This document shows, piece by piece, positions 14,159-55,200 of a stretch of 64,000 nucleotides of DNA. Source of the stretch: a virus; IMG/VR virus record IMGVR_UViG_3300042558_000825, positions 1 to 64,000 of that record. One strand, given 5' to 3'. Position 1 is the stretch's first letter. Each line of letters begins with the position of its first letter. Made by a program: the position numbers and the translations under genes. A model generated the notes under the pieces. That model was not told where the DNA came from, ran no database searches, and saw only the letters and a list, made by a program, of their open reading frames with translations.

Positions 14159-14757
14159 TTTTTGAATAATAATGCCGAAGCAATAACTAATGCTGTTTGT
14201 GCGGCTTCTACATCAGCTGGTTGCTCTTTCCAACCTACACTAATTTGACCAATGAATACGCCGGGTTCAGCAGGTACACTGATTCTACACATATAGTTAA
14301 CACCATTCTCCCTGTACGCAAATCCAATTAAGCTTTGTGGCTTAAGATAAGGACTACATGGTATCTTACCAGACATTAAACCAATCACATCATTGTTGTT
14401 ATCGTAGTTTTTAGAAAATAATCCAACATCTAATCCATCATGTTGTTTAATTCTTCCACCATTGCGTGTAGCTAAGAACACGATTTTTCTAGTGTTTACT
14501 AGTGTATTAACTTCCATTATGGATACAAGTTCTACTTCTGTATTTTTTAATAAGAAGTTGTATGCGTCATCATACTTGCCGTTCATCTTTGGTAATGCTT
14601 GTTGAGCTTTATACGTTGCCAAGAATGAATCTTTTTCTGTATAAACGATCCAACCAGCAAATCCTAGTATACAGAGAAAGACAACGGTGAATAGACGAAA
14701 TGGACTTTCGCCTATATAAGTTAATAAACTAAAGAGAAAATCTTTAAGTTTGTCCAT
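14155..14757 (-). CDS. Putative T4 T-type holin (single TM + periplasmic GAF-like domain)
   Basis: 200 aa with N-terminal amphipathic helix and one TM. By-eye match to T4 T as recalled: VYTEKDSFLATYK ~ WYRGDSFFEYYK; VNYMCRISV...FIGQISVGW ~ INYMYSCPY...YAGTITMYW; C-terminal helix. Confidence 0.55.
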   Translation of the reverse strand: MDKLKDFLFSLLTYIGESPFRLFTVVFLCILGFAGWIVYTEKDSFLATYKAQQALPKMNGKYDDAYNFLLKNTEVELVSIMEVNTLVNTRKIVFLATRNGGRIKQHDGLDVGLFSKNYDNNNDVIGLMSGKIPCSPYLKPQSLIGFAYRENGVNYMCRISVPAEPGVFIGQISVGWKEQPADVEAAQTALVIASALLFKK

Positions 14758-16021
14758 CCGGTGCTACCTCTTTGTCACAGACAAATGCTGTTACTGCTAC
14801 GTTACCGTGTACATGACTTGCTGTGCGAATCATATCCATTAATGGGTCAACTGCAATCAACAACACTAACACAGCTTCACTTGGAAGTTTTAACAAGTCA
14901 CAAACAACTGCTACTGTAGCAACTGTTAAGATACCTGTTGTGCCTGCACTTGCTAGTCCTGCTAAGATACTACCAAATAACACTACAGCTAATCCAGTTA
15001 AACCTAACGGTGCATCGTAGATGTTAGCAATGAATACTGTAGCAATAGCATAGTAAACAATACTGCCAATACGATTAACAGTGAAACTTAGTGGAACAGT
15101 TAATTCAACTCCGCCTTTATCAAAGTGTAGTCTGTGTAATGATTCTTGTGCGTATGGTATACATGCTAATGAACTGCGTGAGCTAACAGCTACAATCAAT
15201 GTTTCTTTAGTTTCACGGATAACAGTCATTAAACTTAATCCACTACGCATCCAAATTACAACAGTACCTGCAATAACTACTAATAGTCCACCAATAAATT
15301 GTTGCATTACAAAGTCAAACATAGTTAAGAATATACCTACACCCACTTTACCAACTTGTGCTGATATCATTGCTAACAATGCAATTGGTAAAAAGTAATT
15401 TAAGAACTTAAAGATGCTGATACTTGCTTGTTGAATGCTTTTAAGCACTTCTACAAGCATCTTTTGACCTTCTGTTTTAAGATGTCCAAGCGCAACACCA
15501 AATATTAAACAGAAGATAACAATCTTCAAGCTTTCACCATTGTTTAGTGTGTTGAAGATGTTTTCTGGAATAAACTTCTCTGCCATTTTACCTGCATTTA
15601 CTGAGGGTTCTACTGGCATTGGTTCTTTAAGAGTAATGTTTAAGTCTGTCCCACTGTCTTTGTCGTTTACTAGTACACCAAGTTGTGTTTTCTTCTCAGG
15701 TGTCATTTCTGTGCCAGTTATTAGAACAGTACCTACGCCAATAGTTGCGGCTAAGAACATACTACCAACAAAGCCTACAATGATTTTGCGAATCAATTGT
15801 TGACTACCTTCTTTCTGTAGTAAGCCAATGATACCAACTAAGATAGTTGCTAATAAGAATGGTAATACTACAACTTTAAGTAAGCTGATGTAGATGCCTC
15901 CTAAGCTTTCAAAGTTTAAGCTGAACTCAGGAGCATATACTCCACTAAGTATACCAACAATGATAGAACCAAGTATGGTCCACGGGCTTGTTAAAAACGT
16001 TTTTAAATGTGTGGTTGTCAT
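14744..16021 (-). CDS. Dicarboxylate/amino acid:cation symporter (DAACS/SDF family)
   Basis: Multi-TM; IPENIF, VSSRSSLAC serine motif (HP1), PLSFTVNRIG, D-M-I-R-T...V-H-G-N (TM8). Confidence 0.92.
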   Translation of the reverse strand: MTTTHLKTFLTSPWTILGSIIVGILSGVYAPEFSLNFESLGGIYISLLKVVVLPFLLATILVGIIGLLQKEGSQQLIRKIIVGFVGSMFLAATIGVGTVLITGTEMTPEKKTQLGVLVNDKDSGTDLNITLKEPMPVEPSVNAGKMAEKFIPENIFNTLNNGESLKIVIFCLIFGVALGHLKTEGQKMLVEVLKSIQQASISIFKFLNYFLPIALLAMISAQVGKVGVGIFLTMFDFVMQQFIGGLLVVIAGTVVIWMRSGLSLMTVIRETKETLIVAVSSRSSLACIPYAQESLHRLHFDKGGVELTVPLSFTVNRIGSIVYYAIATVFIANIYDAPLGLTGLAVVLFGSILAGLASAGTTGILTVATVAVVCDLLKLPSEAVLVLLIAVDPLMDMIRTASHVHGNVAVTAFVCDKEVAPDGQT

Positions 16022-16030
16022 AGCAGGTCC

Positions 16031-16849
16031 TTATTTCTTTTCTGCTTTATATCTATCCATTAACTTTTTAGTGTCAATGTTACTGTATTCATTTTTGATA
16101 ACATAATCTACAATACTTAGTAACTGTGTAGATTTGTAATTTACTGCTACTGCAATGTTATCTACACTATCACTGATTGTAATTGACTTTGTAGTAATGG
16201 CTGCATCTGGCTTTTCAAAAGCAATTTTCTTAATTTCAAACTCATCTCTATAAGCGGCTGCAATATCACCACGTGTTACTTTATCAATGATTACTTCCCA
16301 TTTATCTTCTGGGAGAAACGTAGCTTTGGGGAAATTAGTACGTGCAAACGTGTCATAGCTTGAGTTACGAATAAAACTTATCTTACCATTAAAATCTCTA
16401 ATGACTTGATATACTTCACGTCCTTGGCTGTTTTGACTTAGCCATAAACGATTGAGAACCAGTGACTGTCTTAGTTTAACATATGGTGTGCTAAATTTAA
16501 CTACTTGTAGTCTAGGGGCTGTAACAGATAATTTACTTACAGCAACATCTGCTCTACCGTCTCGTACTTGTTCAACAACTTCAGCAAAACTTTCAGCATC
16601 TCGTCTAAACTGTACCGGGACTCCAAGCATTACGCCTATTCTTCGTGCAATTTCAACGTCAAGACCTTTGATATCATCCCCTTCACCACTGAAGAAGGGA
16701 GGGTTATCTTTTTTGGTCATTGCCACAATAAGAACGTTTGCTTTCTTAATTGCGGCAATATCAGGGGGTAGTGGTACCGTAGAAGTTGGTAATTGTGCGT
16801 GGACAACTGAACTAATCAGTACGAATAATAATAGTAGTAGTTTTTTCAT
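16031..16849 (-). CDS. Periplasmic amino-acid substrate-binding protein (family 3)
   Basis: Signal peptide; DNPPF, GLDVEIARRIG, GRADVAVS, R...V.FSTPY. Confidence 0.9.
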   Translation of the reverse strand: MKKLLLLLFVLISSVVHAQLPTSTVPLPPDIAAIKKANVLIVAMTKKDNPPFFSGEGDDIKGLDVEIARRIGVMLGVPVQFRRDAESFAEVVEQVRDGRADVAVSKLSVTAPRLQVVKFSTPYVKLRQSLVLNRLWLSQNSQGREVYQVIRDFNGKISFIRNSSYDTFARTNFPKATFLPEDKWEVIIDKVTRGDIAAAYRDEFEIKKIAFEKPDAAITTKSITISDSVDNIAVAVNYKSTQLLSIVDYVIKNEYSNIDTKKLMDRYKAEKK

Positions 16850-21060: not shown

Positions 21061-21073
21061 ATACTATTTATGC

Positions 21074-21100
21074 AAAAAGGAAAGGCTCCTGAGAGCCTTT
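21074..21100 (-). terminator. Intrinsic terminator of tmRNA gene (GGCTC/GAGCC family)
   Basis: AAAGGCTC-CTGA-GAGCCTTT; 20 bp identical to the terminator at 5018-5037. Confidence 0.85.
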
Positions 21101-21376
21101 ACTGAGTTTCTGTTACGAGGTATGTCTTACCCTAGGTAGCCTTTATCAAGCTGCCAATGCGAACTGTGAGTCGTTTGCGTTTACTTTTTTTGCTTCTACG
21201 ACCGGGAAACCCCTGTCCTACGGCTTCTGCTTTGCCGAGCTGTCCACTATGTTACTCTTTGCCCAATCGATCCTGTGTCATCCCCACCTAAATATACATT
21301 ATACACTTAGGTGGAGATGGCCGGCACTGCCCCGGCGTCTTGAACTTATTTTACATCGTTTCATACAGCAATAACT
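21101..21376 (-). ncRNA. ssrA: Two-piece (circularly permuted) tmRNA gene
   Basis: Acceptor piece first (T-arm GCCGG-GGCAGTG-CCGGC, then CATCTCC-A-CC ending ~21310), a hairpin intervening segment, then the coding piece starting GGGGATG at 21285. Acceptor stem has G3-U70. Tag ORF 21178-21146 = ANDSQFALAA-stop. Confidence 0.92.
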
Positions 21377-24300
21377 TCAATTGTATTTAGTATTAAAATA
21401 CTCTTGCAACCAAGGCCAATCATAACTTAAACGTAATTTATCTAACTCACCATTGACTGATTCATAGTATTCTACAGCATCTAATGCACCATTGATACTA
21501 TATTGGGCAAAATCTCCTTCACCTACAGTTGACCATATCTTTAATCTATGTCTGCTTATAGTACTATCTTCTAATCGTAACTTAATAGCTTCACGGAAAC
21601 TAGTACGCCAGGTACTAAACTCATCAGTATTGTATACTGCTATACCTGAATTAATATTTACGACCTCATGTTCATTATCTAGCGTAAAGTCTAATCCTTT
21701 ACCCATATTAAGTAATGTAATATGTTTATTGTATGCAATCATAGCTTGGTGACCGTATTCTAATCCATTGACCGAGTTAGTTGCATGAAAAATATAATGT
21801 TTAGGTACTTGTAGTCTATCAGGTTGCCATGACCAATCAAATTTATCATTAACACGTAACTTAGCAAATACGGTAAACATCCATGGTGTGTTACTTGATT
21901 CTGCAGCCGCATGATAGGCTGCTACACGACCGTCAACCCCATCAACTCTAACAACACGATTTTTTAGTCCTTTAGTCACTTTCAGTAAATGTTCGTAGTT
22001 CTCGTCAGCACCCGTTTCACCGTTACTTAGGAAGACTATATCCAGTGGCTTTGACTGTCCCATTTTTGTTGATTTAGTAATATATGGATAATCGTACAAT
22101 TCTTTTTCAACATAATTATTAGCTTCTTTTGGTACAACAATACGTGTGCCTCCCGTGTTAGTAATCAATATATTCTTTGACTCACTAGACCACATGCTAA
22201 TAGGTTCATCATTGGTATCCGGTGTAGTTACATTATCACTTGTAGTAAACACTGCATATGGGAAATCGTAAGAATGTTTTTTAAAGTTTAAATGTGTATC
22301 TTGTTCAGTTACAAAATTAGGTGCGGGTAAACGTTTTACTTTTTGATGCTGATTAAAGTTAATCTTCTCTATGTTTTCTAACTTATCTAAATCTTCTACT
22401 AGCTCATGTAGTTTATTTACATTAATAAAAAATGTATCACCAAACTTCTGCCTATCACTAGGGAACACATGCAATTGATCTAATGAGAATGGATCACATA
22501 TATAAGTAAAATCAAAGTTTGTATAATCACATATTGAACTGCAAACCCAAATATAATGATCTTTTTTAGTATCTAACTTATGTAGAATGTTTTTCAATGT
22601 GGTTAAATAATTATTTTCATATTTAATTTTGTGAACATTTAAACGTTTAGTTTTATTTTTAATTAATGATACCGTATCATTGATAGTAGTGTGATTACCG
22701 TAATCAATTAAATAAACATCATATAAACAATTACTAGCAATAGCACGTTTTGTTTTTAAAAAGTTTAAGTTACGTAAGTGTTCAATAATTTTTACATATT
22801 TTGTATCTTCAGCAAAGGTTTCTTTATTGACCATAAAGGTAGTACCCCAATGACTCCATTGTGTTCCAAACACATGTACCATTGACATTTGCCACGGGTT
22901 AGGATAATAATTAAATTCAAAATCAGTATAATCTAATTCACTGTTTAATATCCAACACAATTCAGTTGTAGATTTGTTGATACAGCGATTGATGGTCTCA
23001 ACCCAACTATTTAAGTAACGTGTTTTTTGTAGCGTTGGGAACTGTGTTTTAAGTTGTTCAAATCTAGTTAATGATTCTTTATTACCTTTGTCTACAAAAA
23101 ATGCATCAACTGGTTTAAACAGTTTAGATAGATATTCTTCATCTAATTTTACATTTTCAACAAAGTTTATATCTCTGTAACCGTTATGCCACATTTTACT
23201 GTTAACTAGATATGTGTGTGTTGTTTCGCTATCAGGTGATCCAAACACATTGATATTGAATGCTTGTTCTTTAGTAGGATGCCAATCAAAATTAAATGTA
23301 GTATAATCAATATTTTTACGCAAAGCCCAAAATATTTCATCTTTGTGTGCTTCTATCAATTTTTCTAAGGTGGTTTCAATATAATATTGTGGATATTGAA
23401 TCTTATTATCAGATAATAATACATTTTCTAATAACACAACATGGCCATCATTACCCGGTGTAATATATTTAGGTCCATCTTGTAAATGAATATCCTCTAA
23501 TACTGTACCAAATTGATAGATATAGGCAGGACTAGTAGCATCAGGATGCCAACTAAAGTCAAATTTTGTATCGTCAAATCCTGCAGGTATAATCCAATTT
23601 GTGTTGTCAGGTAATCGTTTAGATTTTAATACATCCAGATACTTAATTGGGGTATCAACTGTAGACCCGGGAGGTGTGTATATAGGACCATTTGTTTTTT
23701 GCCATTGTGTACCAAATTGGTATATTAAAGGATCATCATTAATATCAGGATGCCAACTAAAATCAAACTCGCTAACATCTAATCTAGATGGCACACTCCA
23801 ATATGTCATATCCGGTTTTAGTTTTGCTACAGGATAATCCATGTATTTGATATCGGTTGCGCCATTTGCAATATATTTAGGTCCACCTACTTTATCCCAT
23901 GTACTTGAAAACTGATAGATATAGGCAGGTTCAGTTGAATCCGGATGCCAACTGTAATCAAATTCTTCTACGTTAACAGGTATATCCCAATTTGTTTTAT
24001 CAGAAATACGTTTGGCTTTAAGTATATCCATATATTTTACGGGAGTATTTTCATTACAGCCCGGTGCTGTAAATATAGGACCGTCTGTCTTTTGCCATTG
24101 TGTGCCAAATTGATATACAAAAGGATCATCGTTAATATCAGGATGCCAACTAAAATCAAACTCACTAGAATCTAGGCCGGCTGGAATAGACCAATGAGTC
24201 ATATCTTGTTTAACTGTTGCAATAGGATAATCTAAATATTTTATTTCTGTAGCACCCTCTACAGTGAATTTAGGTCCACCTGTTTTACTCCAGGGACTAG

Positions 24301-25522
24301 GGAATTGATAGATATAGGGAGATTCAGTACTATCCGGGTGCCAACTAAAATCAAATAATTTTTGATCCACATTTCCAGGTATTAACCAATTGGTAAATCT
24401 CCAAGCTATAACTTCTGCTCTAATAACATCTATATATTTAATTTCTGTTGCACCGGGAACTACATATCTAGGTCCACCTGTTTTTTGATGTACCGTTCCA
24501 AATTGATATATGTAGGGAGGATCATTAGGATTAGGTTCCCAACTAAAATCAAAACTATTTTTTATAACATACGGAGGTATTTCCCAATTATCCATACACT
24601 GTTTACGTGTAGCACGTTCTTCCATGTACTTATATTCTGTTGCACCTTCAACAACATATTGAATAGAAATTTTATCTGCAGGGTTATTCCATTGATTCCC
24701 CCATGCATATATAAATGGAGGACTATAAGGGTCAGGTTGCCATGAATAGTCTATTCCATCACTATTTTCTAAATGAGTAAATCTAGCACTGTTGGGCAAT
24801 AACTCTGCCTTCATTGAATCATCGTTAATATATTTTCGTTTAGTAGCTCCTGGTACATGATACTCAACAGTTGGCATAATTTCACCAGGATATAGTGTAT
24901 TACCAAATACATAGATGTATGCGGGTTCATTTGGATCTGGTCTCCAGCTAAAGTCAAATGTAGACTTATCTATAGATTTCCATATTTTCCACTTGTCCCA
25001 TTCAGGTAATAATTCTACATCATCGTACATGTATTTTACAGTAGTAGCACCTTCAACATGATATTCTACACAATGTTTAAGTTCTGTCGGGTAGAATTTG
25101 CAACCCCATTTATATATGTAGGGAGGATCGTATGGATCGGGCTCCCAACTAAAATCAAATTTTAATTCATCTATTTTTTCTAATATTACCCAATTATCAT
25201 TTTTAATGTTTTTTCTATATATAGGTTCAACATCAGCACGATATATAATAGTATCAATATCTTGTTTTGGACATAACCATGTACCACTATCTTTATGACG
25301 GTTGCTTGGCCATACGTTATTATATTCGCTAGTCCAAACTTCGTCATCAGGTAAAAAATCAAAATCCCAATCCCAATCAAATTTAGTATAATCACAATAT
25401 TCATTGATTATCCAAAAATGTTCTGTAGTACATTGCTGTCTAGCGTCAGCTAAATCAATTGCATGTTTTTCTCGGGGGTGTGCGTTAGGTTTATTACCGT
25501 AATAAAATACATCTCTTATCAT
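21377..25522 (-). CDS. Large multi-repeat glycosyltransferase-like protein (1381 aa)
   Basis: About 9 repeats of FDFSWHPD...YIYQFG...GP.Y; C-terminal GT-A-like modules (DIVFLSNGE...RVDGVDGRVAAYHAAA) paralogous to 37095..38048. Confidence 0.65.
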   Translation of the reverse strand: MIRDVFYYGNKPNAHPREKHAIDLADARQQCTTEHFWIINEYCDYTKFDWDWDFDFLPDDEVWTSEYNNVWPSNRHKDSGTWLCPKQDIDTIIYRADVEPIYRKNIKNDNWVILEKIDELKFDFSWEPDPYDPPYIYKWGCKFYPTELKHCVEYHVEGATTVKYMYDDVELLPEWDKWKIWKSIDKSTFDFSWRPDPNEPAYIYVFGNTLYPGEIMPTVEYHVPGATKRKYINDDSMKAELLPNSARFTHLENSDGIDYSWQPDPYSPPFIYAWGNQWNNPADKISIQYVVEGATEYKYMEERATRKQCMDNWEIPPYVIKNSFDFSWEPNPNDPPYIYQFGTVHQKTGGPRYVVPGATEIKYIDVIRAEVIAWRFTNWLIPGNVDQKLFDFSWHPDSTESPYIYQFPSPWSKTGGPKFTVEGATEIKYLDYPIATVKQDMTHWSIPAGLDSSEFDFSWHPDINDDPFVYQFGTQWQKTDGPIFTAPGCNENTPVKYMDILKAKRISDKTNWDIPVNVEEFDYSWHPDSTEPAYIYQFSSTWDKVGGPKYIANGATDIKYMDYPVAKLKPDMTYWSVPSRLDVSEFDFSWHPDINDDPLIYQFGTQWQKTNGPIYTPPGSTVDTPIKYLDVLKSKRLPDNTNWIIPAGFDDTKFDFSWHPDATSPAYIYQFGTVLEDIHLQDGPKYITPGNDGHVVLLENVLLSDNKIQYPQYYIETTLEKLIEAHKDEIFWALRKNIDYTTFNFDWHPTKEQAFNINVFGSPDSETTHTYLVNSKMWHNGYRDINFVENVKLDEEYLSKLFKPVDAFFVDKGNKESLTRFEQLKTQFPTLQKTRYLNSWVETINRCINKSTTELCWILNSELDYTDFEFNYYPNPWQMSMVHVFGTQWSHWGTTFMVNKETFAEDTKYVKIIEHLRNLNFLKTKRAIASNCLYDVYLIDYGNHTTINDTVSLIKNKTKRLNVHKIKYENNYLTTLKNILHKLDTKKDHYIWVCSSICDYTNFDFTYICDPFSLDQLHVFPSDRQKFGDTFFINVNKLHELVEDLDKLENIEKINFNQHQKVKRLPAPNFVTEQDTHLNFKKHSYDFPYAVFTTSDNVTTPDTNDEPISMWSSESKNILITNTGGTRIVVPKEANNYVEKELYDYPYITKSTKMGQSKPLDIVFLSNGETGADENYEHLLKVTKGLKNRVVRVDGVDGRVAAYHAAAESSNTPWMFTVFAKLRVNDKFDWSWQPDRLQVPKHYIFHATNSVNGLEYGHQAMIAYNKHITLLNMGKGLDFTLDNEHEVVNINSGIAVYNTDEFSTWRTSFREAIKLRLEDSTISRHRLKIWSTVGEGDFAQYSINGALDAVEYYESVNGELDKLRLSYDWPWLQEYFNTKYN

Positions 25523-43221: not shown

Positions 43222-46200
43222 TTAAGATATGGTCGTATTTAAGAAATATGCCGCATCAGTCTCGCTAATCTGTAACGGGTCTCCGTCAGTTACGTTATAT
43301 ATGTTGCTATTCCATGTTAAATTATAGTCTACACTAGGTAACAAATTATTAGATAATAATCCAAACATTTCAGAATATAACGGTATATAGCTTAATTCTG
43401 CAGTTCCGTTAGTTCCACGCTGTAATCCAGATATTGCATTTATTGCAATAGCAGTACCTGTACCCATACCTAATCCAGTAGCAGTAAACGTTAATCCTAC
43501 TGTATTGCTTGATGCACCTATACTAGTAAAGTTTGTTGTTCCTACAGTTTCAATAATATACTGTTGTCCAATTTTGAAGTTTCCAGATTGCAATATTGGA
43601 TTAACTGTTGTGAATTTAATTTGTTCTCCGTTAATATAAATTAAATTACCTTCAAGTGTTACAATAGCTAAACTATCACCAACAGTAACTTCATCATATA
43701 TTTCTAGAATTGGAGATAAGTCTATGATTACTATATCATAATTAGTAGAATTTATATAAGCATTTGTCGTATTGTTATAAACAGTAACTTGAGAAATAAT
43801 ATTCTTGTCTGCTGTTAATCCTATACTTGTTATACCATTCACTGCAGCCGGTGCTACTACGTTTTGTGTAATCTGGTCAGTTATTTTAGTTACATCATCA
43901 ACATATATTACTGCATCAGTATAATATATTGGTTGAACTATCCAAGTTCTAGTATTACTATTTGATCGGAATACTGAGCCAGTGCCATTTTTATTAACAT
44001 TTTGTAAATATACTAATTGATTAGGTGTAGCACTAGATATCATACTAGTAATGATGATGTCATCTCCTGTGACAATCTCTGTCAAAATGCTTAAATTATT
44101 ATTAGCATTTAAATACAACTGAGTTGAAGGGACCCGATATCCATTAATAGTAACCCATAATCTATCAACATTACTTTGTTCCCAATCACTATCTACTACA
44201 AATATACCATCTTCCCATATATATCCACCTGATAGATATGTTGATATACTAGTTACTGGATCGTTAACGGCTGATATACTTGATGAGTATGAAGTATTAT
44301 ATAGATCAACTTGAGTACTACTAATCACATGAACATAATATGTATTATTATTTAATTGAACTGAACCTATAGTCCCGTCAATACGTATTAAATCATTTGT
44401 AGTTAAATTATGAGCAGTAGAAGTAGTTACACGAACTGCAGGAGTTCCTCCAACATATGCTAACATAGTACCGGTAGCAGTTCCTGGATTAAAAGTTGAA
44501 CCACTTAATGTTGTTGATATAGTAAACGTACCATCGTACGGATAAGTTACTGATTTCACATAGTAAACAGTACCGTTGGTTAATACATTTCCAAGTTGTG
44601 TTCCTTTAAATATAATTGTTTGGTCAACAATAAAACCACTAGTGTTAGCACATGTTAACAAATTACCAGTACTAGATACGGCAGTTACAATAGTAGATAC
44701 AATAGGTGGTGTAATTTCATTGTCAATATTGATAATAGTTGATACTGTTTTATTTGTTATATCGTATTGAGTATTAAAATATTGACGTTCAGTTAAATTA
44801 AAACTTGTTACAGCAATAGTATCTAATGCTGACGGTGTTAACGGTGTTCCACCAATAAATTGTAAGGTGTCAGTACTACTATTAATGGTATATGCTGTAT
44901 CAAGTAAACGTACTCCGTTTATTTCTACTATAGCATTAGTAGGATTATCACCACCAACAAAGTTTGTTAGAGTGAATGGTCCACTAGTACCATTACCTAT
45001 AATAGTTTGTATTTCTGGGATAGTATAACCATATTGTGACGGATATGTCTCTCCAAATACAGTATATGCCAAATAATCTAACGTAACATCATACTGTGCA
45101 GAAAAAATCATTTTTGCAGAAATACCGTTATCTGCTATACCAAATGAATAGTCATTCGTAATTCCAGTTGCGCCACCTACCGCATCTGAAAGTGTAATAA
45201 CAGTACCACCCAATGTAGCAGAGATAGTAAACTCATTACCATCAAAAATTGATTCAATATAATATACTGTTTGCGGTGTTATGTCATTTCCAAACATTGT
45301 GTCACTAAACACAATTCTATCTCCTACTGCCATTCCACTAGTTGTATTACACGTAATACTATTATTTGAACTGTTAGTTTGTGTGATTCTGTTAGTATGA
45401 CCCAATATCAATTTAGTACCATTATGATATACAATAGGATCACTCCATACTGCACCACTACCGGTTTGTATTACAATATCCATTGAACCAGAATCGGTAG
45501 TTATGATAAATGTAGGTCCAGCTACTCCATCAGTTATTACATCTGAAATTGTAATTTTGTTTGTTACGGTACTAATAGTTTTAACATAATAATGAGTATC
45601 TGCTACTATTCCACCAAACACATCACCTTGGAATATAATTTGGTCATTTAAAGTAAAGTATGCAACATTTTCACACAATATAGTGTTATCGGTACTATCT
45701 GTCTCTGTTGCTATTACATTAATAGGTTCAGTTCCCGGTCTAATAACACCAGATCCAGAAGAACGTGTAGCTGTAAAGTTACAATTTAAATTAATTTCAT
45801 TAAATCCAGTTACTGTATTAATACGAATAGGGTCAGTCTGACTATTAGATTTTTCTAGTTGATCACCGTTACCTACTTCGTAAACTTCTACCACCAGTGA
45901 GTCCCCTGCAGGCAAACTACTAGGTAATGTAATTGTTTTTACCAACCAATCTACAGTGAATGAGGAAGGTGAATATAACCTTGTAGATAATCCAGTTACA
46001 CTATCTACTTGGAATACTGACAATTGCGCTGGGAATTCAACTAAATTATCAAAGCTAAAAGTTAATTGACCAACTGTTGGTGTAATCTGAGTAGATACTA
46101 CATTGTATCCAACATGTTGATATGTTTCAACATCCCAGTTTGTACCTGGACGAGTTGTAACTATCATTGTTAAATTGTCAGATACTACACCAGGTACCAA

Positions 46201-49200
46201 TTCTTCCGGACCATAACCTGACATAAAAGGATCGCCTTGAACGTCATATATTGTAGGTAGTGTGTCAAATACTCCTACATTAATCCAAGTTATTCCGTCA
46301 GCACTTTGTAATATAACATTATTATTACCAGCTATTACAAATTCATTATCAATGTTGTTCCATGTTATGCCATTTAAATTTTCAGTTGTTATATCAGAAT
46401 CAGTTACATCTGTCCAAGTAACACCGTCATCTGATGACGTTAGTATTGCACCTGCTTGTCCCACAATTACAAACAATCCTAAATCACTTGAATATGCAAC
46501 ATCTTTTAAGTTGTAACTTCCTGTTCCTACATTTACCCAGTTACTACTATTAATAGATGTAAATATAGTTCCATTGTCACCTACTATGATAATAGTATTA
46601 TTACCACTAGTTACTCCATATAATGTTTCTGCCGATCCAAAAGGTGTAATATTTGTCCAAGTTATTCCATCTAGGCTATTTAACACAACGCTTTGAGTTA
46701 TTGTTGGTATTACGCTGTAGTCCGGACCATATCCTACTGCCACAAATCCATTAAAGTTATTGATAGTTATACCTGAAATACCGTATAAAATAGAACCGTA
46801 AAAATTATATACTTCTATCCAATTATATCCATCGGTACTAGATACAATATTATTACCAGTAGCAATATATTTTCCGTTTAAGTATGAAACACTATATAAT
46901 TGTGTACTATCTATAGATACCGTACCGTCAACTAAGCCAGTAGTAGCCCAAGATTCTCCGTCAGTACTAATAAAGATAGGAGTTGCCGTGTTAGTAGAAG
47001 TTATTATATATTTTCCATTAAAATAACCAATGTCAGATAATCCTACCGGTTGTTCTGATAATTTATTAGAAGGCCACGATGTACCATTAACACTATTAAT
47101 AATTAATGAATATGTAGGCGTATTAGCAGAGCCAATATAAGTAACTCCATCAAATAATATTGAAGCAGTATCTACTTCTACTGGACTAAATGCTTGGTCC
47201 TGTAATATAGTATCTAATGTGTATTCGTCTGCTGGCGGGAATGCATTACCTTGGTATGTGCTATTTGGATAAGTTATACCTTCTACTAATTGAGTTAAAT
47301 CTAATCCAGGCATATTAGCTGTTGGTTGATAGTAACCCATAATTCTGTCTAACGCATTTAATTTTCTGCTATCGCTAGATAATAATTCCCATTTACCAAA
47401 TATAAACTCAGTATCATTATTACTTACAATACATTGATAAACTCTGTTATTATATTTGACAATACTCTGATTGAAATAGAATGGTTCTGGTAATAACGTA
47501 TAATCACCTGCAGTGTATGGGAAATCTATTCCACTAACTGGAATCTGTAATAAAGGATCACTGTATACTTCACACTCTGTAGCAGATATAACTTTTAAGT
47601 AATATTGTTCAACAGTTTCATTTGGAGTACCAGCGCAAATTACTGATAATATTTCTCCATTAGTATCTATCGTATTGACAGTCATTACTAAATCATTTGC
47701 AGGAGTAGTACCGGCTAATGCAGTTCCTAATATAGTTATAGTATTATTAATAGCATACCCTTCTCCAGCATCTGCAATATTTACGCTATAACCACCTAAA
47801 ACCCAACTTACATCAAATTCAGGAACTAATGTAGGTGCCTGTGTCATTGTTACATTAGCTGACGTATCTGTTAATGGGAATTCCCCGCCCCCTAAACTTG
47901 CTGATACTTTAATATAAGGTTGTCCTGTAATACCCATTGTACCGTTTTCACCGGTTAAATCAACTTCAGTTCCTCCAGGAACATTAGATATTTTAAATTG
48001 AGTACTAGTAATTGGTGATACGATTGTATCTATTATATAATAGGTTGTGTCTAAAACTACACCTCCTAAACCAGTACCAGTAAATGTTACAGGCATTTCA
48101 TTATAGAATCCCGCTGTACTTGTACAAGTTAATACATTGCCTGCGCTAGTAGAGGTTACTGTAGTTTCTACTATCCCATTTGCTACAATCCAATAAGTAG
48201 TTCCACCAGTCAATCCGCCGTAATTACTAGCAAATTCTACTGGCATGTTATTGTATATGTTAGTTAATCCACCACTGGTAGTAGTTACACTTAAATAATC
48301 ACCGTTAGCTAATGCATTATCTATAGTACGTACTAGTAGATTACTGTCAGTTCCAATTAATCCTGTATATGTAGAAGATGTTGGGTAGAATGTAAACTGT
48401 TGTCCTGTAATTTGTCCTGGGCTAACCGGTAAACCGACATTGCAAATCATTGATCCTGTCGCAGTTGTCAGTTGGACAATGTTCTTTTGGTCTGTACCTA
48501 AACATGTGCCGGTTACATTACTAGGGCCAAGATTAAATGCTCCTCCATTAATTACAGTAGAAACTTGAAAATTATTACTATCAATTACCGCACGTACATA
48601 ATAAGTTGTACCACTAATTAAATTACCAAAATCTGAAACTACTGAGCCACTAATCACCATGTCAGTAAATATTATTGGGTCATTAATTGATAAGCCCAAT
48701 GTACCGGTACACGTGATATAATCAGTACTTGCAATCACGCCTGTTACATTAATAATTAACGGGTCCTGCACTGTAGACATAGTAAATGTGGTACTATTAA
48801 CTACTGTAGTCACATAGTATTCTTCATTTTCTATGATTCCACCAAATACACTACCTGTAAAGAATATTGGTAAATTAGTATAGAATCCAGTAGTACCTCC
48901 TAAACCAGATCCCGTTAACGGAATTGTTATTGTATTTGTTACTGCAGTGGTATTAGTGGTATTTAATATGCCAGGATAGAATAATGTAACAACTGCAGTA
49001 TTAGTAACTTCACCTACGTATAACAATAGGCCAGCAGAACTAATTGTAGCAGTATTTAAATTAAATGTGCCTCCACCGATTGCGGCAGATATAGTAATAT
49101 CAGTATCATTCAATATGGTTTTTACATAGTATGTTGTACCATTAACTAATAAACTATTGCCTACTGCACCCTGAAATTTAATTGGCATATCAACATAGAA

Positions 49201-52200
49201 ACCAGTTGTAGGACCAACACCACCTTCATCAGGAGCACCACCGGTTGAAGGAGCAATAGTAATTATATCACTAGTTCCTCCTGTAGTTGATACTACATTT
49301 CTTGTACGTGAGCTCCAATTTAAAGTTTGGTCATTAGTAACACCTTCTATTTCAAACACTGCACCCTGGGCACTAGCTAAGATAGTATCAATTGATGGTT
49401 GAGTAGATTCTAATGTTATACTTGAACTAGATATTCTTACTGAATTGTTGTACAATCCTGCATAAAAACTGCCATAGAATTGTCCACTTTGCCAATCAGA
49501 TAATTCTGAAGTATAACTTGTTCTATCAAATCTCAATGCTATTTTATTTTCTCTAATTGGAACTGCAGTTGACACACAGCTAGCTCTTGCACTAATACTT
49601 AACAAGTTATTAGAACCAGTACCAGTAGTATACAATACAACTCGGTCGGTATCATTGATTGCATCTCTATACGTTGTATATAATGCAATATTAAATGTTG
49701 GAGTTGATTCAAGTACATTAACATAGTAATATTGATTAACTTCTAATCCACCTACTGCAGTTGTATCAGTACCTATAGTATATTTTATTAAATCACCAGT
49801 TTGTAATAAGGGTAACGGTAATATTATTGTATTAGTGAAAGTGTCAACATCGGTTGAGGTAAACGGTAATCCTATAGAAGGGTCAATGACAATTTCTGGT
49901 AACACTACATAACCATCACCCGGATCAATAACATCAATACGTAATATAGAATCTAAATTCATTACGGCTTGTAATATTGCAGGTCTTCTTGGTTCCGGAT
50001 ATATTGACGTATCAATGTATGCTGTTATTCTAGGTGGCTCATTATATGCACGGCCGCCATTTAATAACAATACCGCTGGTAAATCAATTGTTATAATTTC
50101 TCCCGGAATATGTACAGAAATTGGTGTACCATCAACACCGCGTGTTAAGCCAAATAATGTATTATTTGAACGGTCAACTCCTGCATATCCTATTAATTCG
50201 TCACCTATTAATATAGTTCCATTAATGGGGAATCCATATGCATTATCTACGGCAAATGATCCAGAATTCAATGAAATATAAGATGCTAATACAGTGATTT
50301 GATAATCATTAACTCCGGTAATACTTAGTCCGTAATTATTAAACCATTCTTTATACGCACTGGTTTGCCATATAGGGTCAGTGGGTAGATATTGATTAAT
50401 TGCACTTGGATTACTATATACTAATTCAGGAGTAATAAATTGTTGTACGTCAGTATTATATTGTGACGGTAAATCAAAATCAGTAATAGTCCCTGCATAT
50501 AATTCAGAACCTGTATATTTAAATAAGAACTCTTTAATAACTACATGATAAGGTTTAACTTCATTAATATATCCTGCCAAGAAATCTTGATTATCTGATC
50601 GGAATACTTCTAGTGGTAATAATTCACGTATAGTATGGCCAACATCAATAAACGATGTTTTATTTAACCACGGTAAATAATTTTGTGATTCAATTGTTTC
50701 ACTTTGAATATATTCAAATAATAATACTAAACTTTTGTTTCTATAAAGCAATAACTCATTGGTATAAATTTCTTCATTTAATGCTCTTACAATACTACGA
50801 GTTTCCTGCGATGGATATGTATCATACGGAGTGGTGTCAAAGAAATTATCTCCGAATCCTAATCTAGCAGTTGAATAATCCCACAAGTCACTACTAAACT
50901 CAATAGTGCCATCTTGTAGACCTATACGTTCCCACATATTTAAATTAGTATAAACATAGACTTCAGATTTACCATCACCATTAGTAGTGACAGTTACAAT
51001 TAATCCTGGCGTTGCATCTATTGTTGCTAAATCAGCATAGATAGGAACCTGTAGTGCTGATTTGGTGTTATTATCATATCCAGTAGCCCACCAATTAATA
51101 TAATTCCAATAATCGGTTGTATTATACTTAGCACCTTCAGCAAATGCTAAGAATGATGCAGTACCTGTATTTCTACTAGAGCCGGTTGCTGGTCCAGTAG
51201 CAATAAACGTGATACCTGCAGTATTACTTGCGGCGCCTATACTAGTCCAGTTTACATCTCCTACAGTTACAATAGTATATGTTACATTGGCTTGACAATT
51301 GCCTGCAACAATGGTTTCTATAATTGTTGGGTTTTGTGTATTTAAGAAACTAGCATTTCTTGTTTCAGTAATAGGATATTGTGCTAATACATCATTAGCG
51401 TATGTCAAATAATTTTTCAATGCTAAAAATCTATTAACAAAGAAACTTTGTCTTGGTCTAGCATAGATACCGTATTGTACTGGTTTCGGTAGATACGGAT
51501 CAGGAACAACACCGCCTGATTCATCTACTCCGCACAAACTATCTAACATTCTATCATACAACGATTCAGGAACATCCAATCCATTAGTAGTAGGTAATCC
51601 TGGTAAGAAGTCATCCGCATAGTTAGTACGAATTAAGTTATATAAACTATGTGAAACATCATCATTAGTTCCGGTTGAAAAACCAATATGTAATACGGTA
51701 TCATTTGCATTGATATTATCACCGCAATTATATAATCCATATATATCTTGTTCTAGTGGTGCAAAATAACTAATCCCAGAGTTAATAGGAGAAGCAATAT
51801 ATGATTGAATAATACTATCTGCTAAAGTTTTTCCTGTTTTAGTGAATATAATATTAGTATTTCTAACCCAATAGTAATACACTGGAGTCAGTACACCGGA
51901 AGCATTTAAGGTGTATTCAATTGCATATGACTCTACATCAAACACAGTGCCTGGACCAGCATAACTTATAGGAGGAACATCACTTGTTATCCAACTGTAT
52001 ACTGTTACATCACTTCCTGGGAATACTTGACCCCACCATTTGCTATCATATACTATATCATTTTGATGGTAATTTACAAATCGTGTAGTACTTGTATTAA
52101 ACCATATTTGTCCAATTTGTACTGCTCCCCAAACCATTGCACCCTTATTAATATTAGGACTATTATAACCAGCTGGATCAACATTAGATATCACATCAAT

Positions 52201-55200
52201 ATTTTGACGTACAGATCCTAATATTTTACCTTGCAATGGGTCAATATAATCTAAATTGTCTAATGTGTTATTGGTAATTGCACTATATAATTGTATGTTT
52301 TGAATTCTATTGGTATCAACAACCGGGTTTGAATTTCTATACACACTCCAATCAGGGGTACCTGTAGCATTAATATATGTTATAAGTTGTCCTGCAATAG
52401 TATCTGGTTTAAAGTTAGGTGTCCCGATAACTACATGTGATGCGTTAAAATCTATTGCATGTCCAAACATTGGCTGACTGCCATATGTTTCATTAATATC
52501 ATTAGTACTCTGTGCATATACAAAATTACCACAATTTGCTAACGATTCATTATATACTGACAGGTAGTCAAACATGTATACCGCACCAGCATTTCTATAA
52601 GTATCAACCCATTGTGTAGCATTGTTGTCAAACAGTGTGTCATTGTCATAATCTTCGTCATCGGTAGAATCAAATGTTGTCGCTTGATAACGGGTTGCTG
52701 TTGGTGCACTTACTACGAATGAATTAAATTCATTGAATTTAACCACATTACCAAACTGAGTAGTACCTTGTATATGTGGGTCGGTAATAATTTGTGTTTG
52801 TGTATAAGTATTAAATCCTAATTCTGCCCACGTAGATGTATTCAATACAGTAACATTAAGTTTATCATTAACTGATGCCAATGCAGTATTTATTAAGCTA
52901 ATAATTAACTTGCCTGTAGGGATCCCTAAATTATCTAATTGCTCAGATGCTTGTACATTAGTAATATTTGCTTGATTAATTATATTAGCAACGGTTGATG
53001 CATTGCCTGCAGTTAATGTTACTATATAACCATTAATTAAAATAATCCTAGTAGTGGTAATTGCACAATCTGATGTACCAATAATCATACCGTACTTGCC
53101 ACCACCGTTAGTGTAGCGATAGACCGCACCTTCTTGATTTTGACTGTTTAATTCAAAAGGAGCTCCAACTAATATTTCAGTAGCATAGGTGTTTGTGTCA
53201 ACACTATTACCAAACTGTACACCAATTTTAGGTGTTGTTTCAGTAGTAAGAGTTTGACATAATACAAAGTTGTTACCACTTACATTGATGATATCACCTG
53301 CATTTAATGAGCTGTATACATATAATGTTGAATCTATAACTGCATAATTGTTATCAGTAATTATAGTACCATTAACAGTAATTAATAATGGTGTTATTTG
53401 TATTGAGCATGTCATGCTACCGGTAGAAGATGTTAAATTAATAGGAACTACTGAACCTCTAGATGTTGTGATTCTAAATGTAGTGCCTGTTGGTTTATCA
53501 AGTATATAATACACTGTATTAGCGGAAATTGCTCCACTAGATAATAGTCCGGTTGAATTAGCTGTACCTGTTCCTGTTCCGGCACCGGTAGCTACAAAAG
53601 TTTGACCAATTGTGTTAGCGGATGCACCTATTGCTACAAAATTAGTAGTGCCAACAGATGTTATTGTATACGTTTCTCCTATTGCAAAATATCCTGCATT
53701 AGTGCCAGTAGAGAAAACAACAGGATCTCCTACACTAAAACCAGCTGAACTAGTTACAGTAATTCTTTCAGTTGATCCGTCTATAGCAGTAGCAGTTTGT
53801 GTTACTGTAGTAGGTGTCCAAGCTAATGTAAACGTTTGCGGGACATCTGGCAAACTTGTAAATTGTGATTCAACATTTTGTACGGTTCTATCGTATACAT
53901 ATGTGTAGCCCCAGTTTTCAATTGAACCATCATAGTTTTTATCAGGTGTACCGATTACTACTGTGTCACCATAATAATCTGTTGCAATAGAGTAACCAAA
54001 GTTATCATCATTTGTTAAGCCCAAATTAATAGTTGTAGAGTATTCATATTCTTCTGTGATAGTTGAATAACGATACACATATACTAAACTAGTAGACGAT
54101 GTTACTGCTGATATATATAACCAATTAGCGTCGCCGGAGATAGCAATTGCTTTACCCCACTCAGTTACACCAACTGGAGCAGCTATAGCAGATTGTAATG
54201 ACTGTAATTCATCAACTGTTATACTAACTACTAATTGATAAACATAAACTGCAGGAGTACCTGTAGGTTGTGATATAACAAATATATCATTTGCATAAGC
54301 AATAGTTGTACCAAATGAAGATGATGATGTAATTGTTTGTAGCAACTCATATCTATCAAATAGTGTATTATATGAATAACGGTATGCAACTCCTGCGTCG
54401 GCATCACCAATTAAATAACCCAAGGTGTCAGTATACGCTACTGCACTACCAAACGTTTCAGAACCGTTTTTAATTAATTCTGAATCATAGCCGTAATTAA
54501 TACTTTTGCGATATACTGCCCAATCGCCATCATTATTTGTATCTACCCAAACTTTGGTTTTAACAAATTCTGTGTTCAATAAAGGTAAATCAATAATATC
54601 ATTAGGAGTCGCTACACGTTGAGATTGGAATTTAAATCCAATACCCTGACCAAATATAGAAGTGATTGACGGAGCCAATGTTACATTAACCAATACACTA
54701 TTCAAATCAATTACTGTATTAACTATATAATATCCGTTTAAACTATCATTAAAGTTAACAACTGCAAATGGTTGATATTTTGTCAATCCATGAGGATTAT
54801 TAAATGTTATGGTAGCAGTGCCATTTAAATTGTTTTTTGCAAATATTACTTGACCTAAACTAACCGGGGTCATTACTTGCCAAGTACCTTGATAATCGGC
54901 TAACCAAATATATTGCCCTACATATAATTGTGATAAAGGTGTCAACACACCGCGTGGTGATGTGCTAGTTGGTAAATTAGTATAATAGTATGCCGCAATA
55001 CGCATATCATTAAAGTTAGCATAGCCTGCATCTGGTAACAAATACGAAGGGGTATTAGTAGGTAATAATGGCAGTACGTCTGTACTATTTACCGGACGTC
55101 CATAATTATATAAACTATATAATGGTACTTCTTGTTGTACTCCATCAGTAGATATTCCGTTAGTCAACCCAACAATACTTGGATTGCCTGTTAATAGTGA

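What the first reader, a model, noticed from the sequence alone, without database searches (positions are those of the whole stretch)
21101..21389. Phage-encoded circularly permuted (two-piece) tmRNA under late-promoter control
Seen: the 3' acceptor half precedes the 5' half. They are joined by a hairpin (CCACCTAA...TTAGGTGG) that extends the acceptor stem. There is a G3-U70 alanine identity pair, a T-loop GGCAGTG instead of TTCRA, tag (A)ANDSQFALAA, an incomplete CCA (ACC-T), TAAATA at 21384 and its own terminator. Known: two-piece tmRNAs occur in alphaproteobacteria, some cyanobacteria and a betaproteobacterial lineage; as I recall, the GGCRGU T-loop is alphaproteobacterial-like. Inference: the phage supplies its own ribosome rescue late in infection, perhaps against mRNA- or tmRNA-cleaving defences. 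It may be a separate permuted lineage, since the tag looks beta/gamma-like.
Basis: partly seen in the sequence, partly recalled or inferred. Interest (0 to 1): 0.8.

Follow-up and report, generated by a model that had tools for sequence, protein, structure and literature searches.

The report
Two-piece tmRNA gene in giant phage
An uncultured giant phage carries a complete, back-to-front ("two-piece") gene for tmRNA, the RNA that frees stalled ribosomes. Phage genes of this kind are already published, so this is a well-supported new member, from a virus-only branch that mixes features of two bacterial types.

Summary
A circularly permuted tmRNA gene lies on the minus strand at about 21076-21411. 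It scores 109 bits on Rfam tmRNA_permuted (cut-off 47) and 99.3 bits on beta_tmRNA (cut-off 84).

The contig is viral: a 95.5-kb IMG/VR record, about 27% complete. Its baseplate gene order resembles that of 350-490-kb Rak2/Atu_ph07-like jumbo phages.

Bacterial alphaproteobacterial two-piece tmRNAs have GGCRGUA, and betaproteobacterial ones have UUCGAUU.

The gene is a mosaic. The two elbow loops are alpha-type. The stems, the missing CCA, the spacer length, the messenger half and the tag are beta-type.

It belongs to an all-phage clade of at least 20 distinct sequences. That clade shows strong compensatory base changes and selection on the tag peptide, and its tag-coding halves have been exchanged by recombination.

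"Late-promoter control" is not settled. A weak sigma-70-like promoter overlaps the TAAATA motif, and relatives use either type.

No SmpB gene was found. The host is unknown.

Phage two-piece tmRNAs are published (Buchholz et al. 2022). This scan has already met the same branch on other DNA.

Verdict: real, probably functional, a new member of a known kind, of moderate interest.

The parts
21404..21409 (-). sigma-70-like -35 hexamer TTGCAA
   Evidence: It aligns with TTGACA of relatives L004 and L006.
21380..21385 (-). sigma-70-like -10 hexamer TACAAT, 18 nt after the -35 hexamer
   Evidence: It aligns with the TATAAT box of the Rfam beta_tmRNA model.
21384..21389 (-). TAAATA, within CTAAATAC; the phage's T4-late-like promoter motif, overlapping the -10 hexamer
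   Evidence: TAAATAC occurs 25 times on the gene strand and 5 times on the other. TAAATA lies 10-55 nt upstream of 24 of 85 ORF starts.
21310..21378 (-). Acceptor piece: 5' leader, P2 5' strands, T-arm, acceptor 3' strand, A73-C-C
   Evidence: Rfam alignment, coordinates, covariation in P2 and the T-stem. The 5' end is estimated from promoter geometry, not mapped.
21320..21336 (-). T-arm: GCCGG, loop GGCAGUG, CCGGC (alpha-type T-loop)
   Evidence: Two T-stem pairs show compensatory changes across 20 relatives.
21286..21309 (-). 24-nt intervening segment, presumably removed on maturation. It extends the acceptor stem as a hairpin.
   Evidence: The same 24-nt spacer is found in at least 14 related phage genes.
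21076..21285 (-). Coding piece: acceptor 5' strand GGGGAUG (G1 at 21285), D-loop analogue ACACAGGAUCGAUUGGG, P2 3' strands, hairpins, tag frame, 3' hairpins, terminator
21146..21178 (-). Tag reading frame: GCA resume codon to UGA stop, peptide ANDSQFALAA
   Evidence: Four different codon sets encode the same peptide in relatives.
21071..21100 (-). Intrinsic terminator: 8-bp stem, 4-nt loop, U-run
   Evidence: Eight of ten pairs show compensatory changes in relatives (helix 17).
21377..25522 (-). Upstream 1381-aa ORF of unknown function. Its TGA stop (21379-21377) abuts the tmRNA gene, and its last codons contain the promoter elements.
   Evidence: Its homologue lies directly upstream of the tmRNA in L003, L005, L021 and L026.

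Best explanation
This is a functional two-piece tmRNA (ssrA) gene belonging to an uncultured jumbo myophage.

Proposed mechanism:
1. One precursor is transcribed. Transcription starts at the gene's own promoter, and perhaps also reads through from the upstream ORF. It ends at the intrinsic terminator.
2. Host RNase P cuts 5' of G1 (21285).
3. The 24-nt spacer is trimmed back to C75 (21310).
4. The CCA-adding enzyme supplies A76.
5. The acceptor piece and the coding piece stay joined by the 7-bp acceptor stem and the P2 helices.
6. Host alanyl-tRNA synthetase charges the RNA through G3.U70 and A73.
7. With SmpB (host-supplied, unless encoded in the unsampled part of the phage genome) and EF-Tu, the RNA enters stalled ribosomes.
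8. Translation resumes at GCA (21178) and appends (A)ANDSQFALAA. This marks the peptide for ClpXP-type degradation and frees the ribosome.

The likely benefit is to keep ribosomes available while host and phage mRNAs are being cut during infection.

What is shown: gene identity, structure, selection on structure and on the tag, phage residence, and mosaic make-up.

What is inferred: the processing sites, charging, the partner proteins, the timing and the benefit.
For: - Model scores: Rfam tmRNA_permuted 109 bits (cut-off 47) and beta_tmRNA 99.3 bits (cut-off 84), both full length.
- All tRNA-like and tag features are at exact coordinates.
- Structure: on 20 distinct related phage genes, 83.7% of cells pair, against 35-43% when partners are slid. 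25 pairs show changes on both sides, against 7-14 when slid. 0 of 500 shuffles reach the observed values. G3.U70 is invariant.
- Tag: the peptide ANDSQFALAA is kept through synonymous changes in four codon sets.
- Phage residence: the contig is an IMG/VR virus record. It has a baseplate wedge gene (PHROG E 3.5e-133) followed by a giant structural ORF, as in Phosso, Atu_ph07 and Serratia BF.
- Synteny: the same upstream ORF precedes the tmRNA in four other viral contigs.
- Expression signals: terminator and promoter-like sites are present.
- Precedent: two-piece tmRNAs in aquatic phages (PMC9004378); tmRNAs in huge phages (PMC7162821); a permuted tmRNA in the cultured relative Phosso.
Against: - There are no expression, processing or tagging data.
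- No SmpB gene was found in this 95.5-kb fragment, nor in five related viral records. The RNA must therefore fit a host SmpB, and the host is unknown.
- ARAGORN does not call the gene.
- The CCA is not fully encoded.
- A minimum-energy cofold of the two pieces reproduces the acceptor stem but not the covariation-supported P2 helix.
- The gene's own promoter is weak by sigma-70 rules, matching 9 of 12 positions.
Confidence: 0.8

Rival explanations
1. Re-programmed tagging rather than plain rescue. The phage RNA competes with host tmRNA in order to change what the tag does. For example, the S-Q at tag positions 4-5 might weaken adaptor binding, or the phage might steer tagged host proteins to proteases to recycle amino acids. 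Under this reading, tag modules are exchanged between phages to suit each host.
For: One nearly identical tRNA-like core is joined to many different tags in syntenic phage genes: ANDSQFALAA, ANDSKFALAA, ANDSVYSLAA, ANDSLYSMAA, ANDNYYTEELRLAA. There is a sharp break in identity between the window and L003 near 21190: 179 of 189 positions identical before it, 26 of 44 in the tag region after it. Buchholz et al. raise amino-acid recycling as a possibility.
Against: The tag keeps the N-terminal AND and the C-terminal LAA, as ordinary proteolysis tags do. No host or adaptor is known. Tag diversity could simply track host tags.
Confidence: 0.1
2. Decoy or inhibitor. The RNA titrates host SmpB or blocks host trans-translation, as reported for the tRNA-like-domain-only molecule of mycobacteriophage DS6A.
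For: The DS6A-type molecule is reported to inhibit tmRNA (PMC4131195; PMC11915505). No phage SmpB was found here.
Against: This gene has a complete messenger half. Its tag frame is kept by synonymous change, and its post-tag helices covary. A pure decoy would not need either.
Confidence: 0.05
3. A passenger or decaying copy recently captured from a host, or an attachment-site fragment, with no role for the phage.
For: Temperate elements often carry tmRNA fragments. The messenger half resembles bacterial beta-type genes.
Against: The gene is complete, with a promoter and a terminator. It sits at a conserved position in several phage contigs. It belongs to an all-phage clade of 22 sequences outside the bacterial beta clade. 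Compensatory and synonymous changes show continuing selection. No bacterial genome among 185,579 species representatives held this core in permuted form under the pattern used.
Confidence: 0.03

Closest known systems
Two-piece tmRNA (ssrA) of Methylophilales phage Melnitz, pelagimyophages and other aquatic phages (Buchholz et al. 2022, PMC9004378)
   Same: A complete, circularly permuted tmRNA gene carried by a T4-like or large aquatic-type myophage, with its own promoter and terminator, and proposed to maintain translation during infection.
   Different: Melnitz's gene is reported as alphaproteobacterial-type and linked to a glutamine riboswitch. The window's gene is mostly beta-type with alpha-type elbow loops, and no riboswitch was detected. 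No phage in the 50,697-record collection matches it by blastn. ARAGORN, the tool used in that survey, misses it.
Bacterial betaproteobacterial two-piece tmRNA (Rfam RF01850; Rhodocyclaceae such as Azonexus, Dechloromonas, Thauera; Sharkady and Williams 2004, cited)
   Same: Overall architecture; CCA not encoded (ACCC or ACCU); a 25-43-nt hairpin spacer; a short ANDxxFAxAA tag; the post-tag region; a sigma-70 promoter at the same place.
   Different: All 22 bacterial genes sampled have a canonical UUCGAUU-type T-loop and a CUGGUUUCGAC D-loop. The window has GGCAGUG and ACAGGAUCGAU. In the tree the window lies outside the bacterial beta clade.
Alphaproteobacterial two-piece tmRNA (Rfam RF01849; Caulobacter type, Keiler et al. 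2000, cited)
   Same: T-loop GGCRGUR and D-loop AGGAUCGA. The core at 21255-21345 scores best on the alpha model, at 50.6 bits.
   Different: Alpha genes encode the CCA, have a CCGGG/CCCGG T-stem and mostly 12-14-residue tags. The window's messenger half gives no significant match to alpha genes.
Permuted tmRNA of the cultured jumbo phage Sinorhizobium phage Phosso (PV764938.1, 349596-350198; not annotated in the record)
   Same: A jumbo myophage that gave the top-listed baseplate-wedge match (30% identity) and has the same wedge-then-giant-ORF order. It carries a permuted tmRNA scoring 113 bits.
   Different: Phosso's gene is plainly alpha-type: T-loop GGCGGUA, encoded CCA, a 411-nt spacer and tag ANDNVSTKVALAA. 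This matches its alphaproteobacterial host. It lies at a different genomic position.

Membership tests
Permuted (two-piece) tmRNA, Rfam RF04321 | Covariance-model score above the curated cut-off over the full model | tested here: met
   109 bits against a cut-off of 47, model positions 1-213.
Permuted (two-piece) tmRNA, Rfam RF04321 | The 3' acceptor half with T-arm lies upstream of the 5' acceptor half and tag frame, with a removable spacer between them | tested here: met
   The order is read directly from the sequence. The spacer is 24 nt.
Permuted (two-piece) tmRNA, Rfam RF04321 | Alanine identity: G3.U70 in a 7-bp acceptor stem, with discriminator A73 | tested here: met
   GGGGAUG pairs with CAUCUCC, followed by A. 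The pair is invariant in 20 relatives.
Permuted (two-piece) tmRNA, Rfam RF04321 | A tag reading frame with an alanine resume codon, ending in a hydrophobic A-A type C-terminus and a stop | tested here: met
   ANDSQFALAA followed by a stop. The peptide is conserved through synonymous changes.
Permuted (two-piece) tmRNA, Rfam RF04321 | Maturation into two base-paired RNA pieces | not testable with these tools
   Only inferred. P2 and the acceptor helices covary.
Permuted (two-piece) tmRNA, Rfam RF04321 | An SmpB partner is available | tested here: inconclusive
   No SmpB was found in the 95.5-kb fragment, which is about 27% of the genome, nor in five related records. Host SmpB is presumed.
Betaproteobacterial two-piece tmRNA, Rfam RF01850 | Model score above the cut-off; beta-type messenger half | tested here: met
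   99.3 bits against a cut-off of 84. The messenger half alone scores 41.8 bits, E 4e-12. The best bacterial blastn matches are beta genes.
Betaproteobacterial two-piece tmRNA, Rfam RF01850 | Canonical UUCGAUU T-loop and CUGGUUUCGAC D-loop, as in all 22 sampled bacterial members | tested here: not met
   The window has GGCAGUG and ACAGGAUCGAU.
Betaproteobacterial two-piece tmRNA, Rfam RF01850 | Falls inside the bacterial beta clade | tested here: not met
   The bacterial beta genes form a clade (support 0.985) that contains no phage sequence. The window is in an all-phage clade of 22 beside it. This is a rough tree from a short RNA.
Alphaproteobacterial two-piece tmRNA, Rfam RF01849 | T-loop GGCRGUR and D-loop AGGAUCGA | tested here: met
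Alphaproteobacterial two-piece tmRNA, Rfam RF01849 | The whole gene scores best on the alpha model; alpha-type messenger half; encoded CCA | tested here: not met
   The beta model wins for the whole gene and for the messenger half. The 3' end reads ACCU. Alpha blastn matches to the messenger half have E above 0.3.

The most novel reading that the evidence does not exclude
The gene belongs to a virus-only lineage of two-piece tmRNAs that evolves by module exchange. A nearly constant tRNA-like core with an alpha-type elbow is recombined with different messenger and tag halves. Phages could then retune the tag, and so the fate of tagged proteins, to each host. Such phage genes, rather than independent permutation events alone, may have moved permuted tmRNA features between bacterial classes.
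Probability: 0.3. Interest if true: 0.6.

Novelty: new member of a known kind. Interest (0 to 1): 0.38.

Why it matters
It adds a well-supported case of a giant phage bringing its own ribosome-rescue RNA.

It also shows that a whole phage branch of such genes goes unseen by ARAGORN, the program used in the published phage surveys. ARAGORN called 4 of 13 related phage loci and none of 3 bacterial genes with this T-loop. Published counts of phage tmRNAs are therefore probably too low.

The mix of alpha-type elbow loops on a beta-type body, and the exchange of tag-coding halves between syntenic phage genes, give a natural set of chimeras. These could be used to ask which parts of tmRNA must match the host's SmpB, synthetase and proteolysis adaptors.

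None of this changes what tmRNA is understood to do.

Tried and rejected
- ARAGORN on the window and on the whole contig found no tmRNA and no tRNA. This is a detection failure, not absence.
- blastn of the whole gene, and of its core, against 50,697 phage records gave no real match.
That was an artefact of fixing the T-stem.
- [quoted passage not shown] is weakened. The T-stem, acceptor stem, ACCU end and spacer length of the core are beta-like, and only the two loops are alpha-like. Elbow type also switches within bacteria: Methylobacteriaceae alpha genes have UUCAAUU.
- An attempt to name the bacterium with the closest messenger half (L222) by a DNA pattern was unspecific. The host remains unknown.
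- The minimum-energy cofold of the two pieces did not reproduce the P2 helix that covariation supports.
- The papers by Sharkady and Williams (2004) and Keiler et al. (2000) are not held in the library. They are cited only through Buchholz et al.
Full report
**What is there**

The stretch holds a tmRNA gene on the minus strand. Rfam gives two full-length matches above their curated cut-offs:
- tmRNA_permuted (RF04321): 109 bits against a cut-off of 47, at 21146-21370.
- beta_tmRNA (RF01850): 99.3 bits against a cut-off of 84, at 21076-21411.

Read 5' to 3' on the minus strand, the parts are as follows:
- A leader with the P2 5' strand GCUGU (21369-21365).
- T-arm: GCCGG, loop GGCAGUG, CCGGC (21336-21320).
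- Acceptor 3' strand CAUCUCC (21319-21313).
- A73-C-C-U (21312-21309).
- A 24-nt spacer (21309-21286).
- Acceptor 5' strand GGGGAUG, with G1 at 21285.
- D-loop analogue ACACAGGAUCGAUUGGG.
- P2 3' strand ACAGC (21243-21239).
- Two hairpins.
- Tag frame from GCA (21178) to UGA (21146), encoding ANDSQFALAA.
- Further hairpins.
- An intrinsic terminator at 21100-21081 with a U-run.

G3.U70 is present. The spacer extends the acceptor stem into a 19-bp hairpin (fold z-score -3.5). ARAGORN finds nothing.

**Is it a phage?**

The window is part of a 95,534-base IMG/VR virus record that CheckV rates 27% complete. That implies a genome of roughly 350 kb.
- Nearly all ORFs run on one strand.
- The ORF at 61604-63883 matches a baseplate-wedge PHROG at E 3.5e-133.
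- By tblastn it is about 30% identical to the wedge proteins of jumbo myophages of 350-490 kb: Sinorhizobium phage Phosso, Atu_ph07, Serratia phage BF, Xanthomonas and Erwinia phages.
- As in those phages, the wedge gene is followed by a giant structural ORF, here 6118 aa.
- The 1381-aa ORF just upstream of the tmRNA has homologues directly upstream of the tmRNA in four other viral contigs: 82% identity in L003, and 53-58% in L005, L021 and L026.

The gene is therefore a stable resident of a phage lineage and not an assembly chimera.

**Is it under selection?**

A DNA pattern for the T-arm and acceptor strand found 26 viral contigs, and a looser one found more than 118. All 16 of the first set that I scanned carry permuted tmRNAs.

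I aligned twenty distinct close relatives (A2) and counted pairs for the window's predicted structure:
- 83.7% of cells pair, against 35-43% when the partners are slid.
- 25 pairs show changes on both sides, against 7-14 when slid.
- 0 of 500 shuffles reach the observed values.
- The P2 helix and the T-stem are 100% paired, with three and two doubly changed pairs respectively.
- The acceptor stem and G3.U70 never vary.

The structure was derived from the window's own fold, so the slid controls flatter it somewhat. The double changes do not depend on that.

The peptide ANDSQFALAA is encoded by four different codon sets in relatives. This indicates selection on the peptide.

**Alpha, beta or something else?**

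- In 32 bacterial alpha two-piece genes drawn from a class-wide sample, the T-loop is GGCGGUA (22), GGCAGUA (9) or GGCAGAA (1). The D-loop is mostly AGGAUCGAC. The Rfam alpha consensus says the same.
- GGCAGUG itself occurs in many Acetobacteraceae and Rhodospirillales.
- In 22 bacterial beta two-piece genes (Azonexus, Dechloromonas, Thauera, Azoarcus, Methyloversatilis and lake MAGs), the T-loop is UUCGAUU or a near variant and the D-loop is CUGGUUUCGAC. The CCA is mostly not encoded (ACCC or ACCU in 21 of 22), and the spacer is 25-49 nt.

Scoring parts of the window's gene separately gives a split result:
- The core at 21255-21345 goes to alpha_tmRNA, at 50.6 bits.
- The messenger half at 21070-21254 goes to beta_tmRNA, at 41.8 bits, E 4e-12.
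- blastn agrees. The best bacterial match of the messenger half is a beta gene, L222 (46.8 bits), whereas alpha genes give E above 0.3.

Within the core, the T-stem, the acceptor sequence, the ACCU end and the 24-nt spacer resemble lake beta genes such as L117 and L102. Only the two elbow loops are alpha-like.

Elbow type also switches within bacteria:
- Methylobacteriaceae alpha genes have a UUCAAUU T-loop.
- One-piece tmRNAs of Elusimicrobia and CPR bacteria have GGCAGUG.

I therefore read the two loops, which touch each other in the folded molecule (established tRNA and tmRNA structure), as a coupled unit that changes state now and then. They are not proof of a cassette swap.

I built a rough tree from 74 phage, 40 alpha and 17 beta genes, with the spacer removed, using FastTree and a midpoint root.
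- The window falls in an all-phage clade of 22 (support 0.976).
- That clade joins the 17 bacterial beta genes and five other phage genes (support 0.971), to the exclusion of all alpha genes.
- The bacterial beta genes form their own clade (support 0.985), with no phage sequence inside.
- The phage sequences were chosen for having this T-loop, and the RNA is short, so this is indicative only.

**Module exchange**

Against L003, a 116-kb contig with the same upstream ORF, the window is identical at 179 of 189 positions from the leader to 21190. Identity then falls to 26 of 44 in the tag region and 18 of 40 after it. Against L004 the pattern is reversed: the tag region is 40 of 44 identical and the hairpin region 15 of 48.

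Across syntenic or closely related genes, one core carries the tags ANDSQFALAA, ANDSKFALAA, ANDSVYSLAA, ANDSLYSMAA, ANDELFALAA and ANDNYYTEELRLAA. Recombination inside the gene is the simplest reading.

**Promoter and timing**

TAAATA at 21389-21384 is real.
- In this contig TAAATAC is strongly strand-biased: 25 on the gene strand against 5 on the other.
- TAAATA lies 10-55 nt upstream of 24 of 85 ORF starts, and ATAAATAC is among the most enriched upstream 8-mers. That it is a late promoter rests on analogy with T4.

It overlaps a sigma-70-like TTGCAA-N18-TACAAT.
- This site aligns with the promoter built into the Rfam beta model.
- It also aligns with consensus TTGACA-N17-TATAAT, TATACT or TACAAT in relatives L004, L368, L400, L398, L442, L006 and L412.
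- Other relatives (L433, L434, L458, L446, L005 and more) have no -35 box and instead have TAAATA 3-4 nt before the gene.

The upstream ORF's stop codon (21379-21377) abuts the gene with no terminator between them, so read-through is also possible. Timing is therefore open. Buchholz et al. placed Melnitz's gene behind an early promoter.

**Partners and host**

No SmpB gene is found in this fragment or in five related viral records, one of which has terminal repeats. No tRNA genes occur in the 95.5 kb.

The RNA presumably uses host SmpB, AlaRS, EF-Tu, RNase P and the CCA-adding enzyme. These steps are inferred from established tmRNA biology. I could not determine the host.

**What is known already**
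- Buchholz et al. 2022 (PMC9004378) describe the two-piece tmRNA of phage Melnitz. They counted 53 distinct two-piece tmRNAs among 18,146 phage genomes, 50 of them aquatic, using ARAGORN.
- Al-Shayeb et al. 2020 (PMC7162821) report tmRNAs and SmpB in huge phages, also with ARAGORN.
- The 2025 tmRNA database lists 79 phage sequences (PMC11915505).
- ARAGORN called only 4 of 13 related phage loci and none of three bacterial genes with this T-loop, so this branch is under-counted.
- Only three papers in the searchable library mention both "permuted tmRNA" and phage. None describes this mosaic branch.
- The cultured relative Phosso carries an unannotated, plainly alpha-type permuted tmRNA.
- This scan has already reported the same virus-only branch on other DNA. 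Follow-up notes e1-5368519 and e1-5764922 reached the same reading. I saw them after my own tests.

**Unpublished genomes**

The class and order samples included two unpublished genomes, G050 and G176. No sequence from them was analysed. Only the tallies (136 of 141 and 8 of 141 over the cut-off) include them.

**Verdict**

This is a real, probably functional, phage-encoded two-piece tmRNA and a new member of a published kind. Its less ordinary sides are its membership of a virus-only, mostly beta-like branch with alpha-type elbow loops, the exchange of tag modules, and the fact that standard detection misses it.

Noticed in passing
L007, L011, L012, L016 (183-nt spacers); L024 (135 nt); L027 (131 nt); L590 = Phosso (411 nt): Related phage permuted tmRNAs have very long intervening segments between the acceptor strands. 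Earlier notes of this scan report small protein or homing-endonuclease genes in such spacers. In Phosso's 411-nt spacer all three forward frames contain stop codons.
   Followed up: partly
PV764938.1 349596-350198 (L590, L591): The cultured Sinorhizobium jumbo phage Phosso has an alpha-type permuted tmRNA (113 bits on RF04321). It lies in a gap with no annotated feature in the GenBank record.
   Followed up: yes
L034, L043 (Elusimicrobia); L030, L032, L040, L042, L054 (Gracilibacteria); L036, L048, L050, L058 (Saccharibacteria); L047; L059: One-piece tmRNAs of these groups carry the same GGCAGUG T-loop. The Elusimicrobia genes also have the AGGAUCGAC D-loop. ARAGORN missed the three I tested (L034, L036, L042).
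   Followed up: partly
L495, L514, L562 (Methylobacteriaceae and relatives): These alphaproteobacterial permuted tmRNAs have a canonical-like UUCAAUU T-loop and a GGGUUCGAC D-loop. This is the reverse combination to the window's gene.
   Followed up: no
window 43222-61578 (-): A 6118-aa ORF lies directly downstream of the baseplate wedge gene. This matches the position of the 10-13.7-kb 'virion structural protein' genes of Phosso, Atu_ph07, Serratia BF and XbC2.
   Followed up: partly
window 21377-25522 (-): This 1381-aa ORF has no Pfam or PHROG match. It is internally repetitive, giving several offset tblastn alignments to its homologues, and it is syntenic with the tmRNA in four other viral contigs.
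   Followed up: partly
whole contig G000: Besides ATAAATAC, a second upstream motif, TTGACAAT(AAA), is enriched: 7 of its 11 copies lie within 80 nt of ORF starts. It may mark early, sigma-70-type promoters.
   Followed up: no
window 14744-16849 (-): A sodium:dicarboxylate symporter gene (Pfam SDF, E 9e-66) lies next to a family-3 solute-binding protein gene inside the phage.
   Followed up: no
L006 (IMG/VR 101-kb contig): A related phage carries its tmRNA about 2.5 kb from a block of 24 tRNA genes. The window's 95.5-kb contig has none.
   Followed up: no
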